From Octopus vulgaris (taxonomy: Eukaryota): a stretch of 64,000 nucleotides of DNA. The position numbers and the translations under genes were made by a program. Below the pieces are notes generated by a model. That model saw only the letters and a program-made list of their open reading frames with translations, was not told the DNA's origin and did no database searches. Numbering within the stretch: position 1 is the first letter of the stretch; every line of letters begins with the position of its first letter. The stretch spans positions 72,788,001-72,852,000 of the forward strand of contig OX597830.1 in assembly GCA_951406725.2 (NCBI GenBank), read 5' to 3'. This document shows positions 5,883 through 52,591 of the stretch, piece by piece.

Positions 5883-5980
5883 AAAATCCCCAACAGCTGT
5901 TTCAACAGCACTTTTATTCGTGAATACTTGGATTACTTCGATTACATAATAACAAAGATCTGATATCATCAGGTGATTTT
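5883..5980 (-). ncRNA. Hammerhead-ribozyme-like motif (type I, long stem II insert), probable Penelope-like terminal repeat relic
   Basis: Minus strand: aaaatcac-CTGATGA-...-GAAAC-AGCT-GTT-ggggatttt. Both core boxes intact, palindromic stem III (ACAGCTGT), imperfect stem I. Confidence 0.5.
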
Positions 5981-15782: not shown

Positions 15783-16162
15783 TTATTTGATATTAATTGG
15801 TTGAAGGAGAGGTTTTCTTCTAGCTGCTCGTCCATAGTACCAAAGCTTATGCAAATATGTTTCACACGTTCTTGGACTAACTTCTAGCTGATTTGCAATG
15901 TAAGAAGCCTTCGAACGGGGTTCGTTTTCCACAATTGTCTTCAAGCAGCAAAGCTTCCTTTCCCAGGGCCCAGGTCAGCCGGGACGAGAATCTGTTGAAT
16001 CTTTACCTTGGCTTTTGAATTGCATTATAATTCTATTAACAGTAGCAAGAGGAATTTGAAGATTTTCGGCAATTTTTCGCTGGCTAAGACCAGCCTTAGA
16101 TTGCCCAACAATGCGACATCTTTGAGAATCTGACAGTTCTGCTGAATTTTTTTGCCTGGCAT
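15783..16162 (-). pseudogene. Tc1-family transposase N-terminal DNA-binding region, disrupted
   Basis: Minus strand: [57 protein letters not shown]...LEVSPRTCETYLHKLWYYGRAARRKPLL. Paired-like HTH, GRPR-like linker and RKPLL motif; frameshift after the ATG and internal stop. Confidence 0.85.
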
Positions 16163-16392
16163 GGTTATTCTTTGCAGATGTTTAATATAATGGCACCTGT
16201 AAGGAAAAAGAATAATAACATTGTAAATTCTACACTGCTGAAAACATATTAAGACCCTTAGATCAGAAATTTTGAAAATTAAACGTGTCTATTTACTTCT
16301 TGCATGTCTGTGTAAATAAATATTTATATGTATATATTCGTACTTGCATGTGTATGTAGGTATGTATATATATATGATATATATATATATGA

Positions 16393-21250: not shown

Positions 21251-21932
21251 CACACATATATATGTATTTACATATATATATATACATAAAACATATATAT
21301 ATATATAAATGTATGTATGTATATATGTATATATGTCTGCATGTATATATTTGTGTCTCTGCGTGTGTCCCTCCAACATCGCTTGACAACTGATGCTAGT
21401 GTGTTTACGTCCCTCTCACTTAATGCGACTATTAACTCCTGTTTCTTCAAATTGCTTTTGAATTTCAAATTGCATTTGAAAGAAGAAAATTCCTGATACA
21501 CTTCTGAAACCATTATTTATAAATGTATTAATTATGAGATTTCAATGATGGAAAGTTGCATCGATAATTTGGCGAGTCCATGCTAGCTGACGAATTCGTA
21601 GGAAATATTTCCAATATGATCGAAAACCAGGAAAAGATTTAGGTGGCTTTCATTGGTTCTTTATTCCGTCAGTATGTGTGTAGTAACGTACACACGATAG
21701 GAGACATAAAGAAACACTCAATTCAACTTGTTTTAACATAATGATTACTGTTAATTATACCTAACATTGTTCGAAAACTGTAATGTACTCAAAGGTCTGG
21801 ACATAGCAGAGCTACCGATGATTTATTGAGGTTGAGGTTGTAAATTTTTCCCATATCAAAATTCGATAAGCTTAAAAAAATCATTTTATAGTTCACAGTA
21901 AGCAGCTGGGGTTGCTCTATATACAAATAAAA

Positions 21933-22312
21933 ATCTAAATTTAGGAAACGGAATAGGTAAAATCCTGGCTACATATGTTTCCTAGCAAGCAGAATCTCAG
22001 AAGTAGTAATTACTCAACGACGAGTACTCCGATAGCTATTCATCTGGCCAAAGATATCTTAGTCAAATGAAGCTTACATTGTCATCAAGGGACCCTGTAT
22101 CAAACTGCAGGAGATTTGATCATAAAATCGAACTCCTGTGAGATAACAAGAGATCTCTTGACGACAATGTAACCTTCATTTGACTAAGGTATCTTCGGCT
22201 GATGAGTAACTAGCGGAGTGCCCCACGTTGAATAATTATTACTTCTGAGGTTCTGCTGGTTACGAAACATATCTAGCTTGGATCTTACCTATTCCATTCC
22301 CTAAATTTGGAT
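21933..22312. mobile_element. ~380-bp imperfect palindrome: inverted pair of Penelope-like terminal repeats, each arm containing a hammerhead fold
   Basis: atctaaatttagg...cttagtcaaatgaagcttacattgtcatcaag mirrors cttgacgacaatgtaaccttcatttgactaag...cctaaatttggat; hammerhead-like motifs at 21962-22055 (-) and 22191-22283 (+). Confidence 0.8.
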
Positions 22313-23301
22313 ATAACCCCCCCACACACACACAAATTCTCTTCGCGGTGGATCTACATATACATATGTGTGAGTGTGCGCGTGCGTATGTATTACTGTC
22401 AGTTTCTCTATCTTGTTATAATAGAAATTATTTAACATTAAGCAGAAGGGCTACTTAATACTGTTTGTAAAGAACATATTTATTATAGACTTACAAGAAT
22501 CGAAGTTTCGGCTTGCTAGCCTACCTCGGACTGTAGAAAGTTATCTGGCTAATGGTGTGAGAAATATACATATATATTTAATTAGTTAATTTGCAATATA
22601 AAACGTAACTTCTGTTAAACAACATATTTTTGTTGCCAATCTTTTTCATTCTTGGCAGAACAACGAGTCTACATAGTTACCATTTCTTTTGTATATTGAT
22701 GTATTCATTCATAAGAAAAACTTGGTAATATTTAACAATGAGATCCATTGTTTGTAGGCATTATTTATTTTCTCTTTCTTTAGATAAGTCTTAAACTGTA
22801 AAGACCAAGTTTTTATTTAAATTTGAAAACGTATAGCTGTCCTTCTTTTCTTTCACTAGAACCTAACAATGCTTTTTGGCTTGCCAACGTTTCCTCTATT
22901 GCTACAATCCTACGTGTGCCAACGTCTTGTTTATACAGGATGCTTTCCTATCTACTATCTTTCTTAATGATCTATCCATAATTTTTCCGGCACACATGCA
23001 CCCACACGTATACATATATATCTGCATTTATGTATCCTTGCATTTTTATCAAGGAATCTATCTGTCCACCTACAGAGATAAATGAACATATTAATATGAA
23101 AAAAATCTATAATCGGTTCAAAATTGTCCTTCCCAAATTTGAATAGATATTTTAATGGCATTTCAAAGGATAATAGCAATTTTTTCCACAATAACTGATA
23201 CTTATTTTATCTGCTCCGAATGAATGAAAATCAAAGTTGGCCTCTGCGGTATTTGGACTCAGAACGTAAAGCAGGAAGAAATGCCGAGAAGTATGTTGTT
23301 C

Positions 23302-23357
<56 letters not shown>

Positions 23358-23361
23358 TAAT

Positions 23362-23879
23362 AGTGGCTTTCATGGCTTGCGATCTTAACTGATTGGAAGT
23401 GTCATTATGTACATTGTTTTGTCTTGGTATAAAAGATGGGCTACAGCAAATATTCTGCTCAATACCACAGATTTGCTTGTCAGTTGTTCGACCTTAACCA
23501 GTTGGCCATGTCCCTTAGTGACTGACGATATGTGCATCTCTGACCACGAGCAAAAATAGTGGGGAGCATCATAGCCGTTTGTTAGAGGTTTGGATAATTC
23601 ACCTTTGGAAACATGGGTGTTTTGTTCAACATACTTAAACAACCCTTATTCAGGGACCTTTTGAGCGGGATGGGTTACCCGACCAGAAGAAATTCTAACT
23701 GGGCCCCACCTGCAAGGTCATGGGCTGTTTATCTTGATATGAGATCAGCATGTCACGCACATATGGTTGTGATGCATGTGCCTGGTGTACCCTTATCAGA
23801 CGGGTAGTCATGATGGGCATACTGGGCTTCGTATATTTACCCCAGCGTCACTTTGATGGCATGCACTGCTCTCTCACAC
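23362..23879 (+). mobile_element. ~520-bp interspersed repeat (family D) with (AAT)n tail, embedded in (AAT)n
   Basis: Closely similar inverted copy at 26138-26685; ends gcactgctctctcacac-aataataa; (AAT)n on both flanks. Confidence 0.9.
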
Positions 23880-23945
23880 AATAATAAAAATAATAAAAAT
23901 AATAATAATAATGTTAATAATAATGATAATAATAATAATAATAGC

Positions 23946-26106: not shown

Positions 26107-26137
<31 letters not shown>

Positions 26138-26685
26138 GAGTGAGAGAGCAGTTCATGCCATCAGAGTGACACTGGGGTAAAATATACGAAGCCCAGTATA
26201 CCCATCATGACTACCCGTCTGATAAGGGTACACCAGGCACATGCATCACAACCATATGTGCGCAACATGGTGATCTCATATCAAGGTAAACAGCGCATGA
26301 CCTTGCAGGTGGGGCCCAGTTAGAATTTTCTTCAGGTCGAGTAGCCCATCCCGCTCAAAAGTCCCTGAATAAGGGTTGTTTAAGGATGTTGAAAGAACCA
26401 CCCATGTTTCCAGAGGTGAATTATTCAAACCCCAAAGAATCCCTCTCAACACATGGCTATGATGCTCACCCACTACTTCTGCTCGTGGTCAGAGATGCAC
26501 ATATCGTCAGCTACTAAGGGACATGCTCAACTTGTTAAGGTCAAACAACTGACAAGCAAATCTGTGGTATTGAGCGGAATATTTGCTGTAGCCCATCTTT
26601 TATACCAAGACAAAACAATGTACATGATGACACTTCCAAACAGTTAAGATCAGAAGCCATGAGAGCCACTGCCTGGTACTGCATC
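26138..26685 (-). mobile_element. Family D repeat, second copy (inverted relative to 23362), flanked by (ATT)n
   Basis: Reverse complement of 23362-23879 with scattered substitutions and small indels. Confidence 0.9.
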
Positions 26686-27081
26686 TATTATTATTATTTT
26701 TATTATTATTATTTGGCTTTGCTTCGCTTTTTGTTTTCTTCCAGCGTTCAAGTGACATTATACCTTTAAGATTATTTTTCGTGTTAACGCCACGTTATAT
26801 GTCTTCGGTCTTTCTCTTATCCAAAGTGATTTCGCTTAGATAACATATTGAATTTTGGTGCACATTACTGTGATAATCGATTTAAAATGCCCAGCGAAAG
26901 TAACACAAAGACAAACAAGATGGCAACTTAAAATACAAATACATGCTAATCGCCACACAACAGCTGCTGCCAAAATGCATTTGGCAGCTTCGAGCAAATC
27001 GAAGAGCAATCATCGAGGTTTTCTGTAAACACGACTGCGCACAACGACACACATCTTATGTTATATAAACCCGTACATATG

Positions 27082-27301: not shown

Positions 27302-27433
27302 TACAAGTACTACCCATATATATATATATATATATATATATAATGATAAATATTTTATATATATACATATATATTAAATGATAAATATTTTATATATACA
27401 TTATAGAAAGTATATATCTATTATACATATACA

Positions 27434-27985
27434 AGGCGCAGGAGTGGCTGTGTGTGGTAAGTAGCTTGCTTACCAACCACATGGTTCCGGGTTCAGTCCC
27501 ACTGCGTGGTACCTTGGGCAAGTAGTGTCTTCTACTTTAGCATCGAGCCGACCAAATCCTTGTAAGTGGATTTAAAAGGTGGTGCTCCAGCATGGCCGCA
27601 GTCAAATGACTGAAACAAGTAAAAGAGTAAAAAGAGTATATATTAAATGATAAATATTTTATATATACATTATAGAAAGTATATATCTATTATACATATA
27701 CAAGGCGCAGGAGTGGCTGTGTGTGGTAAGTAGCTTGCTTACCAACCACATGGTTCCGGGTTCAGTCCCACTGCGTGGTACCTTGGGCAAGTAGTGTCTT
27801 CTACTTTAGCATCGAGCCGACCAAATCCTTGTAAGTGGATTTGGTAGACGGAAACTGAAAGAAGTCCGCTGTATATATGTATAAATATCTGTGTGTGCGG
27901 GTGTGTGTGTTTGTCCCCACCGACATCGGTGTGTTTACGTCCCCGTAACTTAGAGGTTCGGCAAAGACCGATACTAAGCTTACAA
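27434..27985 (+). mobile_element. Two SINE-A heads within a local 269-bp-period duplication
   Basis: ggcgcaggagtggctgtgtgtggtaag at ~27435 and ~27704 with identical upstream flank; first copy lacks the body, second lacks the tail. Confidence 0.9.
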
Positions 27986-46245: not shown

Positions 46246-46455
46246 AATTTACAGAAATGCAAAAGATGAAGACAGGCGTAGGAGCAACATGCAGGCTTGT
46301 TAGTTTGATGCTCGGGAAGAATGGAACAGTCTTTTAAGTTTCGAGTCTACGCTCTTCGACAGAAAGTATTAAGAGGAAAAAATGAGGAGAGAGAACGAAA
46401 TAAAAAAAAACGAAGAGGTAAAAACACGTGTAGGCGTAAACTGTTTAACATGATG
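46243..46455 (-). mobile_element. Penelope-like terminal repeat with hammerhead-like motif (46331-46366)
   Basis: Minus: cttt-CTGTCGA-A-GAGC-gtag-ACTC-GAAAC-TTA-aaag; homologous to the 16393 and 29097 copies. Confidence 0.7.
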
Positions 46456-46466
46456 ACTATAAATAC

Positions 46467-46787
46467 TGGGAAACTATATATATGGGAAACTATATATATG
46501 GGAAACTATATATATCGGAAACTACCGCCTGTGTCATCTCTTGTGAAAGGTAAGAGAATCCAGTTTGCTGGACATTGTTGTAGAGCTGAAAAAGAGGTAA
46601 TTTCTACTCTTCTCCTCTGGAAGCCATCTACTCGCAATACCAGAGGGCGCACACTCTCCTACCCTGATGTAATCTCCAAGGATACAGGTATCCAGCAACA
46701 GGACCTCCGTAATGCCATGATGGACCGTGAAGTCTGGCGTAGCATGGTAAATTCCATTGTCTCGACCACGGTCGAACAATGATGATA
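46467..46787 (+). mobile_element. Apparently young 5'-truncated RTE-clade LINE 3' end
   Basis: Open frame KLPPVSSLVKGKRIQFAGHCCRAEKEVISTLLLWKP...GRTLSYPDVISKDTG...DLRNAMMDREVWRSMV..*, then tgatgat tail. Confidence 0.9.
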
Positions 46788-47945: not shown

Positions 47946-48068
47946 AGCTATTTTTCTGTTTTTTGGAATACTTCCTCTGTGAATGTAGTGGTGTTGCATC
48001 TAATATTAAGGCGTAAAAGGAAGAATTGCGTCTGTCCCTCCCTCTTTCTCTCTCTCTGTATATATACA

Positions 48069-48460
48069 CTAGCAGTATCGCCCGGCGTTTCTCGGGTTTG
48101 TAAGGGAAATAACTATATAAGCATTTTTAGAGATGTAAAGTATAATAACCATCTCAATATGGCTAACCACATGGGGGGTGTTACTGTAGCTTTTACGTTC
48201 TGAGATTTAATTATAAATTTTTAGAGAGTTACTTCCCTTATATATGCCAAAAATGCATTAAAATGGGAAAAATTGATAGTAAATTCTTTTTAAAATCGTA
48301 GACTCATCGTAGACGTGCGCTAATACCCAGAAGGGCTCGATGTGAATCACGACTATAAGATACCCGATTTTGGTTAAACTGCACCGCAAAATGTGGGAGT
48401 AGTTAGGAATCTAAATCGTAGGAGACAGACAGCACACAACCTTACTTTTATATATAAAGA
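48069..48460 (-). mobile_element. Non-autonomous Helitron
   Basis: Minus strand A|TCTTTATATATAAAAG ... cccgagaaacgccggg hairpin - cgatactgCTAG|T; second copy at 52148. Confidence 0.9.
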
Positions 48461-48499
48461 TGTGTGTAAGTGTGACGTTTGGATTGGAGGTAATGAATT

Positions 48500-51990: not shown

Positions 51991-52147
51991 CTGTTTTCAG
52001 CACACGATCTCAGATCAAGTCACTTGCTATGCAAGTACATCTCTGTAACTATATATATATTTATATATATATATATATGTATATTGGTAAAAACAGTAAG
52101 ATAACAAAAGAAAGAAAGAGACCTCAATATTATGTAAATAGAGGAAA

Positions 52148-52541
52148 TCTTTATATATAAAAGTGAGGTTGTGTGTCTGTCTCCTACGATTTAGATTCCT
52201 AACTACTCCCACATTTTGCGGTGCAGTTTAACCAAAACCGGGTATCTTATAGTCGTGATTCATATCGAGACCGTCTGGGTATTAGCGCGCGTCTACGATG
52301 AGTCTACGATTTAAAAAAAAATTTATCATCAATTTTTCCCATTTTTAATCCATTTTTGACATATATAAGGGAAGTAACTCTCTAAAATTTATTATTAAAT
52401 CTCAGAACGTAAAAAGCTACAGTAACACCCCTCCCCCTTTGTGGTTAGCCATATTGAGATGGCTATTATACTTTACATCTCTAAAAATGCTTATATAATT
52501 ATTTCCCTTACAAACCCGAGCAACGCCGGGCGATACTGCTA

Positions 52542-52542
<1 letters not shown>
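52148..52542 (+). mobile_element. Non-autonomous Helitron, second copy
   Basis: A|TCTTTATATATAAAAG...cccgagcaacgccgggcgatactgCTAG|T. Confidence 0.9.

Positions 52543-52591
<49 letters not shown>

What the first reader, a model, noticed from the sequence alone, without database searches (positions are those of the whole stretch)
21933..22312. Palindrome carrying a type-I hammerhead ribozyme fold in each arm
Seen: the right arm (+, 22191-22283) reads atcttcgg-CTGATGA-GTAACTAGCGGA-[loop]-TCTGCTGGTTAC-GAAAC-ATAT-CTA-gcttggat, with a 12-bp stem II including G-U pairs. The left arm (-, 21962-22055) reads atctttggc-CAGATGA-...-GAAAC-ATAT-GTA-gccaggat. The arms carry different defects, so their consensus is a complete hammerhead with stem I ATCTTGGC/GCCAGGAT, palindromic stem III ACATATGT and a GUA cleavage triplet. 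Established: Penelope-like elements carry hammerheads in their terminal repeats and often insert with an inverted 5'-truncated repeat. Inference: this is a ribozyme-bearing retroelement inversion that would otherwise be misannotated as a MITE.
Basis: partly seen in the sequence, partly recalled or inferred. Interest (0 to 1): 0.8.

Follow-up and report, generated by a model that had tools for sequence, protein, structure and literature searches.

The report
Back-to-back Penelope stub with hammerheads
This mirror-image DNA is a real but ordinary relic: two worn copies of a common repeat joined back to back, each with a damaged hammerhead (self-cutting RNA) motif that most family copies carry with an intact core, likely pasted in long ago by a Penelope-type jumping gene.

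Summary
The palindrome (21933-22312, arms 79% alike, joined head to head near 22127) and both hammerhead motifs are real. Each arm is damaged, and Rfam finds nothing. Public runs show a high-copy family in five related animals. Its majority letters repair the defects: intact CUGAUGA and GAAAC-AUAU-GUA, and stem II paired 12 of 12 against 9 of 12 in the left arm. So the ribozyme fold belongs to the family and is not chance. Other copies turn back at other points, and no target duplication was found, which argues against a MITE. The insertion is shared across related species and is probably dead. Best reading: a two-armed, 5'-truncated insertion made by Penelope-like enzymes, a layout already described. 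Not shown: linkage to an RT/GIY-YIG gene, covariation and cleavage. Unusual details are a 12-14 bp stem II and a one-sided extension three to four times the known 30-40 nt tail. The scan noted similar palindromes elsewhere in this genome. New member of a known kind; low interest.

The parts
21819..21932 (-). One-sided 3' extension of the left arm (family sequence missing from the right arm), at least 114 nt. The orthologous copy in organism C has 22 more bases at 21817, and 10 of their last 12 match the family.
   Evidence: Family contigs cover 21835-21932 in all 8 runs laid. The loose-end consensus before 21835 matches the window to about 21819 (compared by eye). Other copies continue past 22312 with this sequence (table 7, run X5). 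Insertion row at 21817 in X6 (table 4).
21933..22126 (-). Left arm, sense strand reading leftward from the centre
   Evidence: differs from the family majority at 29 or more of 241 sites in 21835-22075 (only 40 of 97 rows were shown)
21962..22055 (-). Left-arm type I hammerhead, damaged: U4A in the core, stem II 9 of 12 paired; GAAAC-AUAU-GUA intact; predicted cut between 21970 and 21969
   Evidence: majority letters repair 22045, 22039, 22032, 21987, 21982
22121..22126 (.). Unpaired 6-nt centre of the palindrome (head-to-head junction; the two 5' ends lie within about 6 nt of each other)
   Evidence: fold; sequence
22127..22312 (+). Right arm, sense strand reading rightward; ends at least 114 nt short of the left arm's 3' end, next to a C7(AC)n run
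22191..22283 (+). Right-arm type I hammerhead, damaged: core CUGAUGA intact, stem II 12 of 12 (14 with extension) closing a loop of about 30-34 nt; G16.2 changed to C at 22273; one C lost before the core; stem I 3' strand changed at 22278
   Evidence: majority letters 22273 C>G (76-85% of depth in 4 runs), 22278 T>C (69-87%), 22260 T>C, and a loose-end consensus behind 22199 that starts with CTGATGAG in 26-53 contigs a run

Best explanation
This is an old, likely dead insertion of two head-to-head copies of the hammerhead-bearing end of a high-copy repeat family, likely written into the genome in one event by the enzymes of a Penelope-like retrotransposon (PLE). Shown: two outward-reading arms; 5' ends within about 6 nt of each other; 3' ends at least 114 nt apart; family majority with an intact type I hammerhead core, 12-bp stem II and 1-bp palindromic helix III; orthologous junctions in five related organisms. 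Inferred mechanism: the GIY-YIG endonuclease nicks both DNA strands, and each 3' end primes reverse transcription on the element RNA from an internal start site. The two start sites differ, which gives the one-sided extension. Both cDNAs stop about 75 nt upstream of the core and are joined 5' to 5'. Both arms run through the cleavage site, so the template was likely uncut there, as expected for a ribozyme that would cut only as a dimer through its ACAUAUGU palindrome or with protein help. Since insertion each arm has drifted about 12% and lost its core or helix III, and a read-through transcript would fold into one long hairpin rather than a ribozyme.
For: Family majority repairs every listed defect: left stem II 9 of 12 to 12 of 12 and U4 restored in 85% and 78% of depth in two DNA runs; right arm G16.2 restored in 76-85% in four runs. 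The 3' half of the hammerhead gathers about ten times the depth of its neighbours (21955-22006), so it is the part most widely shared among relatives. Other contigs join a left-type to a right-type arm at other points: 22044 to 22138 with 1 letter between (X2, X5) and 22015 to 22157 with 13 letters between (X2, X5, X9) (15 of 188 joints shown). On the left arm alone, 10 of 15 joints shown (of 20) are opposite-strand, 2 of them probably this locus. No TSD. Literature: inverted 5'-truncated copy plus one-sided tail (PMC8557442 passages; PMC3846280 passages); opposite-strand hammerhead pairs 100-700 bp apart and palindromic helix III (PMC4209133); a PLE protein nicks and extends both strands, starts RT at two internal sites, and uses mainly uncut RNA (PMC11167929 section 3).
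Against: No RT or GIY-YIG domain in 150 of the window's 316 non-repetitive frames scanned, and no genome to look for linked copies. The extension (114 nt or more) is far longer than the 30-40 nt PLE tail. The hammerhead lacks the extra nucleotide after A9 and the 6-8 bp helix II of PLE minimal hammerheads, and looks more like retrozyme-type canonical ones. The left flank is not a microsatellite. Variable junctions could also be deletions across the centre of a palindrome. Covariation is not shown; position 11.1 reads U in 51% of depth. A read-through search of the extension found 0 proteins at E up to 0.001.
Confidence: 0.62

Rival explanations
1. The template was a non-coding retrozyme (a tandem or circular hammerhead monomer of a few hundred nt) mobilised by PLE enzymes, and this locus is a sub-monomer two-armed insertion.
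For: The hammerhead has a canonical core with a 1-bp helix III and palindromic tetraloop, as in axolotl HHR_Amex1 (PMC7229834 passage). No ORF is linked. Contigs at the 3' half of the hammerhead have high depth each, which suggests younger collapsed relatives with a different stem II (loose ends at 22009). Unchecked scan notes describe a tandem family of about 493 nt with a long stem II and two fixed ends in this genome.
Against: 0 of the 15 joints shown (of 20) go back, as tandem units would. The by-sequence look-ups found no look-alike (weak). Contigs are short and break at young tandems, so this is soft.
Confidence: 0.24
2. A DNA-level fold-back: a MITE or foldback transposon that captured a hammerhead-bearing piece, or a later inverted duplication of one older insertion.
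For: Near-perfect symmetry to a 6-nt centre. The arms share 3 letters against the family majority. Variable junctions could be centre deletions.
Against: The ends are not symmetrical: family sequence continues at least 114 nt on the left only, and other copies run on past the right end. No TSD. Depth falls about tenfold at the centre, although local divergence contributes. A DNA transposon gives no reason for a conserved strand-specific ribozyme core.
Confidence: 0.11
3. The hammerhead likeness is chance within an unrelated repeat.
For: No Rfam match; neither arm folds as a hammerhead at minimum energy.
Against: 1 in 300 shuffles for core plus long stem. The family majority restores the core, helix III, cleavage triplet and all 12 stem II pairs.
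Confidence: 0.03

Closest known systems
EN+ Penelope-like element insertions with an inverted 5'-truncated pLTR and one-sided tail (Penelope/Poseidon, Neptune; PMC8557442 Fig. 2 legend; PMC3846280)
   Same: Head-to-head arms, palindromic junction, one end longer than the other, hammerhead inside the repeat, TSD often not discernible
   Different: No ORF between or beside the arms; extension of 114 nt or more instead of 30-40 nt; parent element not identified
Minimal and short-helix-III hammerheads of metazoan PLEs (Cervera and De la Pena 2014, PMC4209133)
   Same: Type I order, palindromic 15.2-loop 3-16.2, opposite-strand pairs within 100-700 bp, predicted dimer-dependent cleavage
   Different: No extra nucleotide between A9 and 10.1; helix II 12-14 bp with a loop of about 30-34 nt instead of 6-8 bp; 58 nt between the core halves
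Animal non-LTR retrozymes (PMC7229834; bioRxiv 10.64898/2026.07.22.740005)
   Same: Non-coding, canonical type I core with 1-bp helix III and palindromic tetraloop, PLE-related, reported in a mollusc
   Different: No tandem units seen here; inverted rather than direct arrangement; no circular RNA evidence
MITE / foldback DNA transposon (PMC8969392 passages)
   Same: Short, non-coding, high-copy, inverted repeat
   Different: Asymmetrical ends, no TSD, other copies with other junctions, conserved ribozyme core

Membership tests
Type I hammerhead ribozyme | Core C3-U4-G5-A6-N7-G8-A9 and G12-A13-A14 | tested here: met
   Met in the family majority (22045 T>A in 85% X1, 78% X6; loose-end consensus starting CTGATGAG) and in the right arm. 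The left arm itself has U4A.
Type I hammerhead ribozyme | A15.1-U16.1, helix III and NUH triplet | tested here: met
   GAAAC-AUAU-GUA in the left arm and family (22273 C>G in 76-85%); broken in the right arm
Type I hammerhead ribozyme | Helix II closed by G10.1-C11.1 | tested here: met
   12 of 12 pairs in the right arm and in the majority. 11.1 reads U in 51% of depth (G-U), possibly CpG decay or a subfamily.
Type I hammerhead ribozyme | Helix I | tested here: inconclusive
   3 bp next to the core, then an internal loop and about 4 bp; majority letters for the 5' strand were not all shown (57 of 97 rows hidden)
Type I hammerhead ribozyme | Compensatory changes in stems across copies | tested here: inconclusive
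   One double change (pair 4: G-C in family and left arm, A-U in right arm). Haplotypes of other copies were not available.
Type I hammerhead ribozyme | Match to an Rfam hammerhead model | tested here: not met
   0 matches at gathering score in the window; no hammerhead among 4 matches at E up to 10
Type I hammerhead ribozyme | Self-cleavage after NUH | not testable with these tools
   needs in vitro assay
EN+ PLE insertion | Inverted, head-to-head, 5'-truncated copies with variable junctions | tested here: met
   This locus and junctions at other points in other contigs
EN+ PLE insertion | One-sided 30-40 nt tail | tested here: inconclusive
   A one-sided extension is present but is 114 nt or more; the right end may have been lost after insertion
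EN+ PLE insertion | RT plus GIY-YIG ORF in longer copies of the family | not testable with these tools
   No genome held. None in 150 window frames. Collection scans empty. Read-through search empty.
PLE minimal hammerhead | Extra nucleotide between A9 and 10.1, helix II 6-8 bp | tested here: not met
   G10.1 follows A9 directly; helix II 12-14 bp
Non-LTR retrozyme | Tandem monomers, each with a hammerhead | tested here: inconclusive
   Not tandem at this locus; 0 of 15 shown joints go back; short contigs limit the test
Non-LTR retrozyme | Circular RNA of monomer size | not testable with these tools
   Only contigs of runs guessed to be RNA were available
MITE | Symmetrical terminal inverted repeats ending at the element's two ends | tested here: not met
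   Family sequence runs at least 114 nt past one end only
MITE | Target-site duplication | tested here: not met
   Longest shared words between flanks were 5-6 nt and not at the ends; age may have erased a short TSD

The most novel reading that the evidence does not exclude
The family carries a long-armed type I hammerhead (12-14 bp stem II, 58 nt between the core halves) that Rfam misses and that lies outside the 7-17 and 35-50 nt spacers used in a published PLE survey. It is present in hundreds to about a thousand copies in each of five related animals. Its insertions record two reverse-transcription start sites more than 110 nt apart, three to four times the known PLE tail, so stem II length and start-site spacing would be a lineage-specific variant of PLE or retrozyme mobilisation.
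Probability: 0.2. Interest if true: 0.5.

Novelty: new member of a known kind. Interest (0 to 1): 0.25.

Why it matters
Mainly for annotation: such palindromes would be filed as MITEs or miRNA hairpins (the best Rfam match was a microRNA model at 30 bits against a 150-bit cut-off), when they are likely scars of Penelope-type insertion. The locus itself is probably dead. The family adds a long-stem-II hammerhead that standard models miss. If the long one-sided extension is a fixed feature, the many stubs would map where PLE reverse transcription starts and stops in vivo.

Tried and rejected
No whole genome is held, so no BLAST consensus, copy list or ORF linkage could be made. Rfam: nothing. 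Pattern scans: 0 in metagenome contigs twice, 0 in viral contigs. Pfam on 150 of 316 non-repetitive frames: no RT or GIY-YIG. Idea that the left extension holds a decayed PLE ORF start: one frame reads ...FFKLIEF*YGKNL..., which resembles PLE N-termini as I recall them, and pLTRs do hold the ORF start (PMC3846280, PMC11167929). A 39-residue read-through found 0 hits among 1.84 billion proteins, so it stays an untested lead; no language-model look-alike result is available for it. Expression: no RNA holder listed. Runs X8 and X23 (RNA only by guess) gave 82 and 29 family contigs, none 95% or more like this locus; not used as evidence. Copy number: summed depth over single-copy depth suggests about 10^2 relatives along the arm and about 10^3 at the 3' half of the hammerhead, but the tool warns that this is not a copy number. 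TSD search: none. No tRNA head in the window. The one supplement file held for PMC8557442 does not contain the motif; the GenBank supplement of PMC11167929 and the bioRxiv supplements could not be read and may bear on family assignment. Look-ups of earlier findings by sequence and by nearness were empty. Opposite-strand joints were not read as exact fold-back points, because the letters between are unknown.

Full report
Setting. The window is AT-rich, microsatellite-rich animal DNA with no long gene-like ORF. An earlier scan note calls the genome octopus; I did not check that. No whole genome is held, so family evidence comes from contigs of public runs laid on the locus.

Observation. The stretch 21933-22312 is an inverted repeat, 79% over 385 columns, single in the window. 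The arms read outward from a 6-nt centre at 22121-22126 and agree at 144 of 187 columns. The right arm has CTGATGA (22199-22205), a stem of 12 of 12 pairs that extends to 14, GAAAC (22264-22268), ATAT and CTA. The left arm, on the minus strand, has CAGATGA, 9 of 12 stem pairs and GAAAC-ATAT-GTA with the self-complementary ACATATGT. Core plus unbroken stem of 12 bp or more plus GAAA occurs once in the window and once in 300 shuffles. Against activity at this locus: neither arm passes a full descriptor; Rfam has no hammerhead match; the hammerhead fold costs 12.2 and 4.7 kcal/mol over the minimum; and a transcript through both arms would form one -212.5 kcal/mol hairpin.

The family. At 80% likeness, 1803, 1948, 1046 and 1951 contigs from runs of organisms A, B, D and E lay on 21500-22800, and 938 and 934 from A and C lay on 21760-22132. 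Unique flanks have single-copy depth and the element far more. The majority letters repair the defects. Right arm (30 of 305 rows shown): 22273 C>G in 76-85% of depth, 22278 T>C in 69-87%, 22260 T>C in 78% (X2), and a loose-end consensus behind 22199 that begins CTGATGAG in 45, 49, 26 and 53 contigs. Left arm (40 of 97 rows shown): 22045 restores U4 (1078 of 1272 in X1, 446 of 573 in X6), and 22039, 22032, 21987 and 21982 take stem II from 9 to 12 of 12 pairs. Among 19 core and helix III positions the shown rows hold only that repair and one 13% minority. Depth at 21955-22006, the 3' half of the hammerhead, is about ten times that of its neighbours. Against: stem I is weaker than proposed, because 21966 makes the 3' strand GCCUGGAU (82%); position 11.1 is U in 51%; and covariation rests on one double change (pair 4, G-C in the family, A-U in the right arm). 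A second stem II variant appears in loose ends at 22009 with low agreement (0.5-0.65), but its partner strand was not visible.

Boundaries. Family cover continues left of the palindrome to 21835 in all eight runs, and the loose-end consensus matches the window to about 21819. Other copies continue past 22312 with the same extension (27 contigs in X5). The organism C orthologue has 22 extra bases at 21817; with them it matches the family's 30-letter loose end at 24 of 30 (counted by eye). So the left arm is at least 114 nt, and originally at least 126 nt, longer at its 3' end than the right arm, which ends beside a C7(AC)n run. No TSD was found. Contigs bridge the left flank and the element in A (0 differences), B (15 in 485), D (10 in 364) and C (7 in 181), and probably the right junction in E (24 in 303). 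The left arm differs from the majority at 29 or more of 241 sites. The insertion is therefore older than these splits.

Other copies. Contigs join a left-type to a right-type arm at 22044/22138 (1 letter between; X2, X5) and at 22015/22157 (13 letters between; X2, X5, X9) (15 of 188 joints shown). On the left arm alone, 10 of 15 joints shown (20 in all) are opposite-strand, 5 are skips and none goes back; 2 of the 10 are probably this locus. This fits fold-backs rebuilt at different points and not one fixed palindrome. Centre deletions could mimic it.

Mechanism (inferred). A PLE protein nicks and extends both target strands, starts reverse transcription at two internal sites whose spacing gives the genomic tail, and uses mostly uncut RNA; its hammerhead cut only with protein present (PMC11167929, section 3 read). 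Inverted 5'-truncated copies with a one-sided 30-40 bp tail are typical of EN+ PLEs (PMC8557442, passages; PMC3846280, passages; PMC8969392, passages). Opposite-strand hammerhead pairs 100-700 bp apart and a palindromic helix III for dimer cleavage are described in PMC4209133 (parts 1-2 of 4). This locus fits: two cDNAs from one RNA type (the arms share 3 letters against the majority), different 3' starts, nearly the same 5' stop, and both running through the cut site. I put 0.62 on a PLE terminal repeat as template, 0.24 on a retrozyme template using the same enzymes, 0.11 on a DNA-level fold-back and 0.03 on chance. The retrozyme rival is live because the hammerhead resembles the canonical axolotl type rather than PLE minimal ones (PMC7229834, passages and section 14; bioRxiv 10.64898/2026.07.22.740005, part 1 of 5), and because unchecked scan notes report a long-stem-II tandem family in this genome.

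What is missing. No RT or GIY-YIG hit in 150 of 316 non-repetitive frames; empty collection scans; empty read-through protein search of the extension. PLE membership is thus not proven: it works like a PLE insertion, and the defining ORF could not be tested.

Novelty. The layout is known. I found no paper on this family: 'octopus + Penelope + hammerhead' gave 5 papers, 4 listed (only PMC8557442 read), and 'cephalopod + retrozyme' gave 2, 1 listed. The one supplement file held for PMC8557442 lists two Octopus Naiads and lacks this motif; unreadable supplements may bear on this. The 58-nt spacing between core halves exceeds the 7-17 and 35-50 nt spacers in that paper's methods. The scan had already noted similar hammerhead palindromes on other DNA of this and other genomes. 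Verdict: real, ordinary, new member of a known kind, interest 0.25.

Noticed in passing
window 5892-5972 (-): A second, unrelated hammerhead-like motif: intact CTGATGA and GAAAC-AGCT-GTT with a palindromic 1-bp helix III, partial stem I (6 of 9), no stem II of 4 bp or more, and no inverted partner in the window. Such a core pair arose 3 times in 500 shuffles (post hoc).
   Followed up: partly
window 21817 (orthologue in run X6; 44 gap letters in X5 and X9 contigs over 21500-21986): Organism A appears to have lost 22 bases near the element's left end through a short ATGA repeat; related organisms keep more of the element.
   Followed up: partly
window 22009-22017, loose ends: At least one further subfamily shares the 3' half of the hammerhead and part of loop II but has a different stem II 5' strand; high depth per contig suggests it is younger.
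   Followed up: no
window 15978-16181 (-): Tc1/mariner-type transposase HTH fragment (PF25787, E 5e-09).
   Followed up: no
window 46309-46782 (+): 157-aa frame that looks like the C-terminal end of an RTE-type LINE ORF (recalled likeness; no Pfam hit).
   Followed up: no
window 23326-23908 and 26109-26713; 48059-48461 and 52147-52552: Two pairs of dispersed repeats in opposite orientation (89% over 606 nt; 93% over 410 nt). The second has a CTAG end beside a GC hairpin, recalled as Helitron-like.
   Followed up: no
window 27368-27573 and 27637-27842: Exact 206-nt direct duplication; very recent or an assembly artefact.
   Followed up: no
window 22424-22599: A low-copy repeat (about 3-12 times single-copy depth) lies just right of the element.
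   Followed up: no
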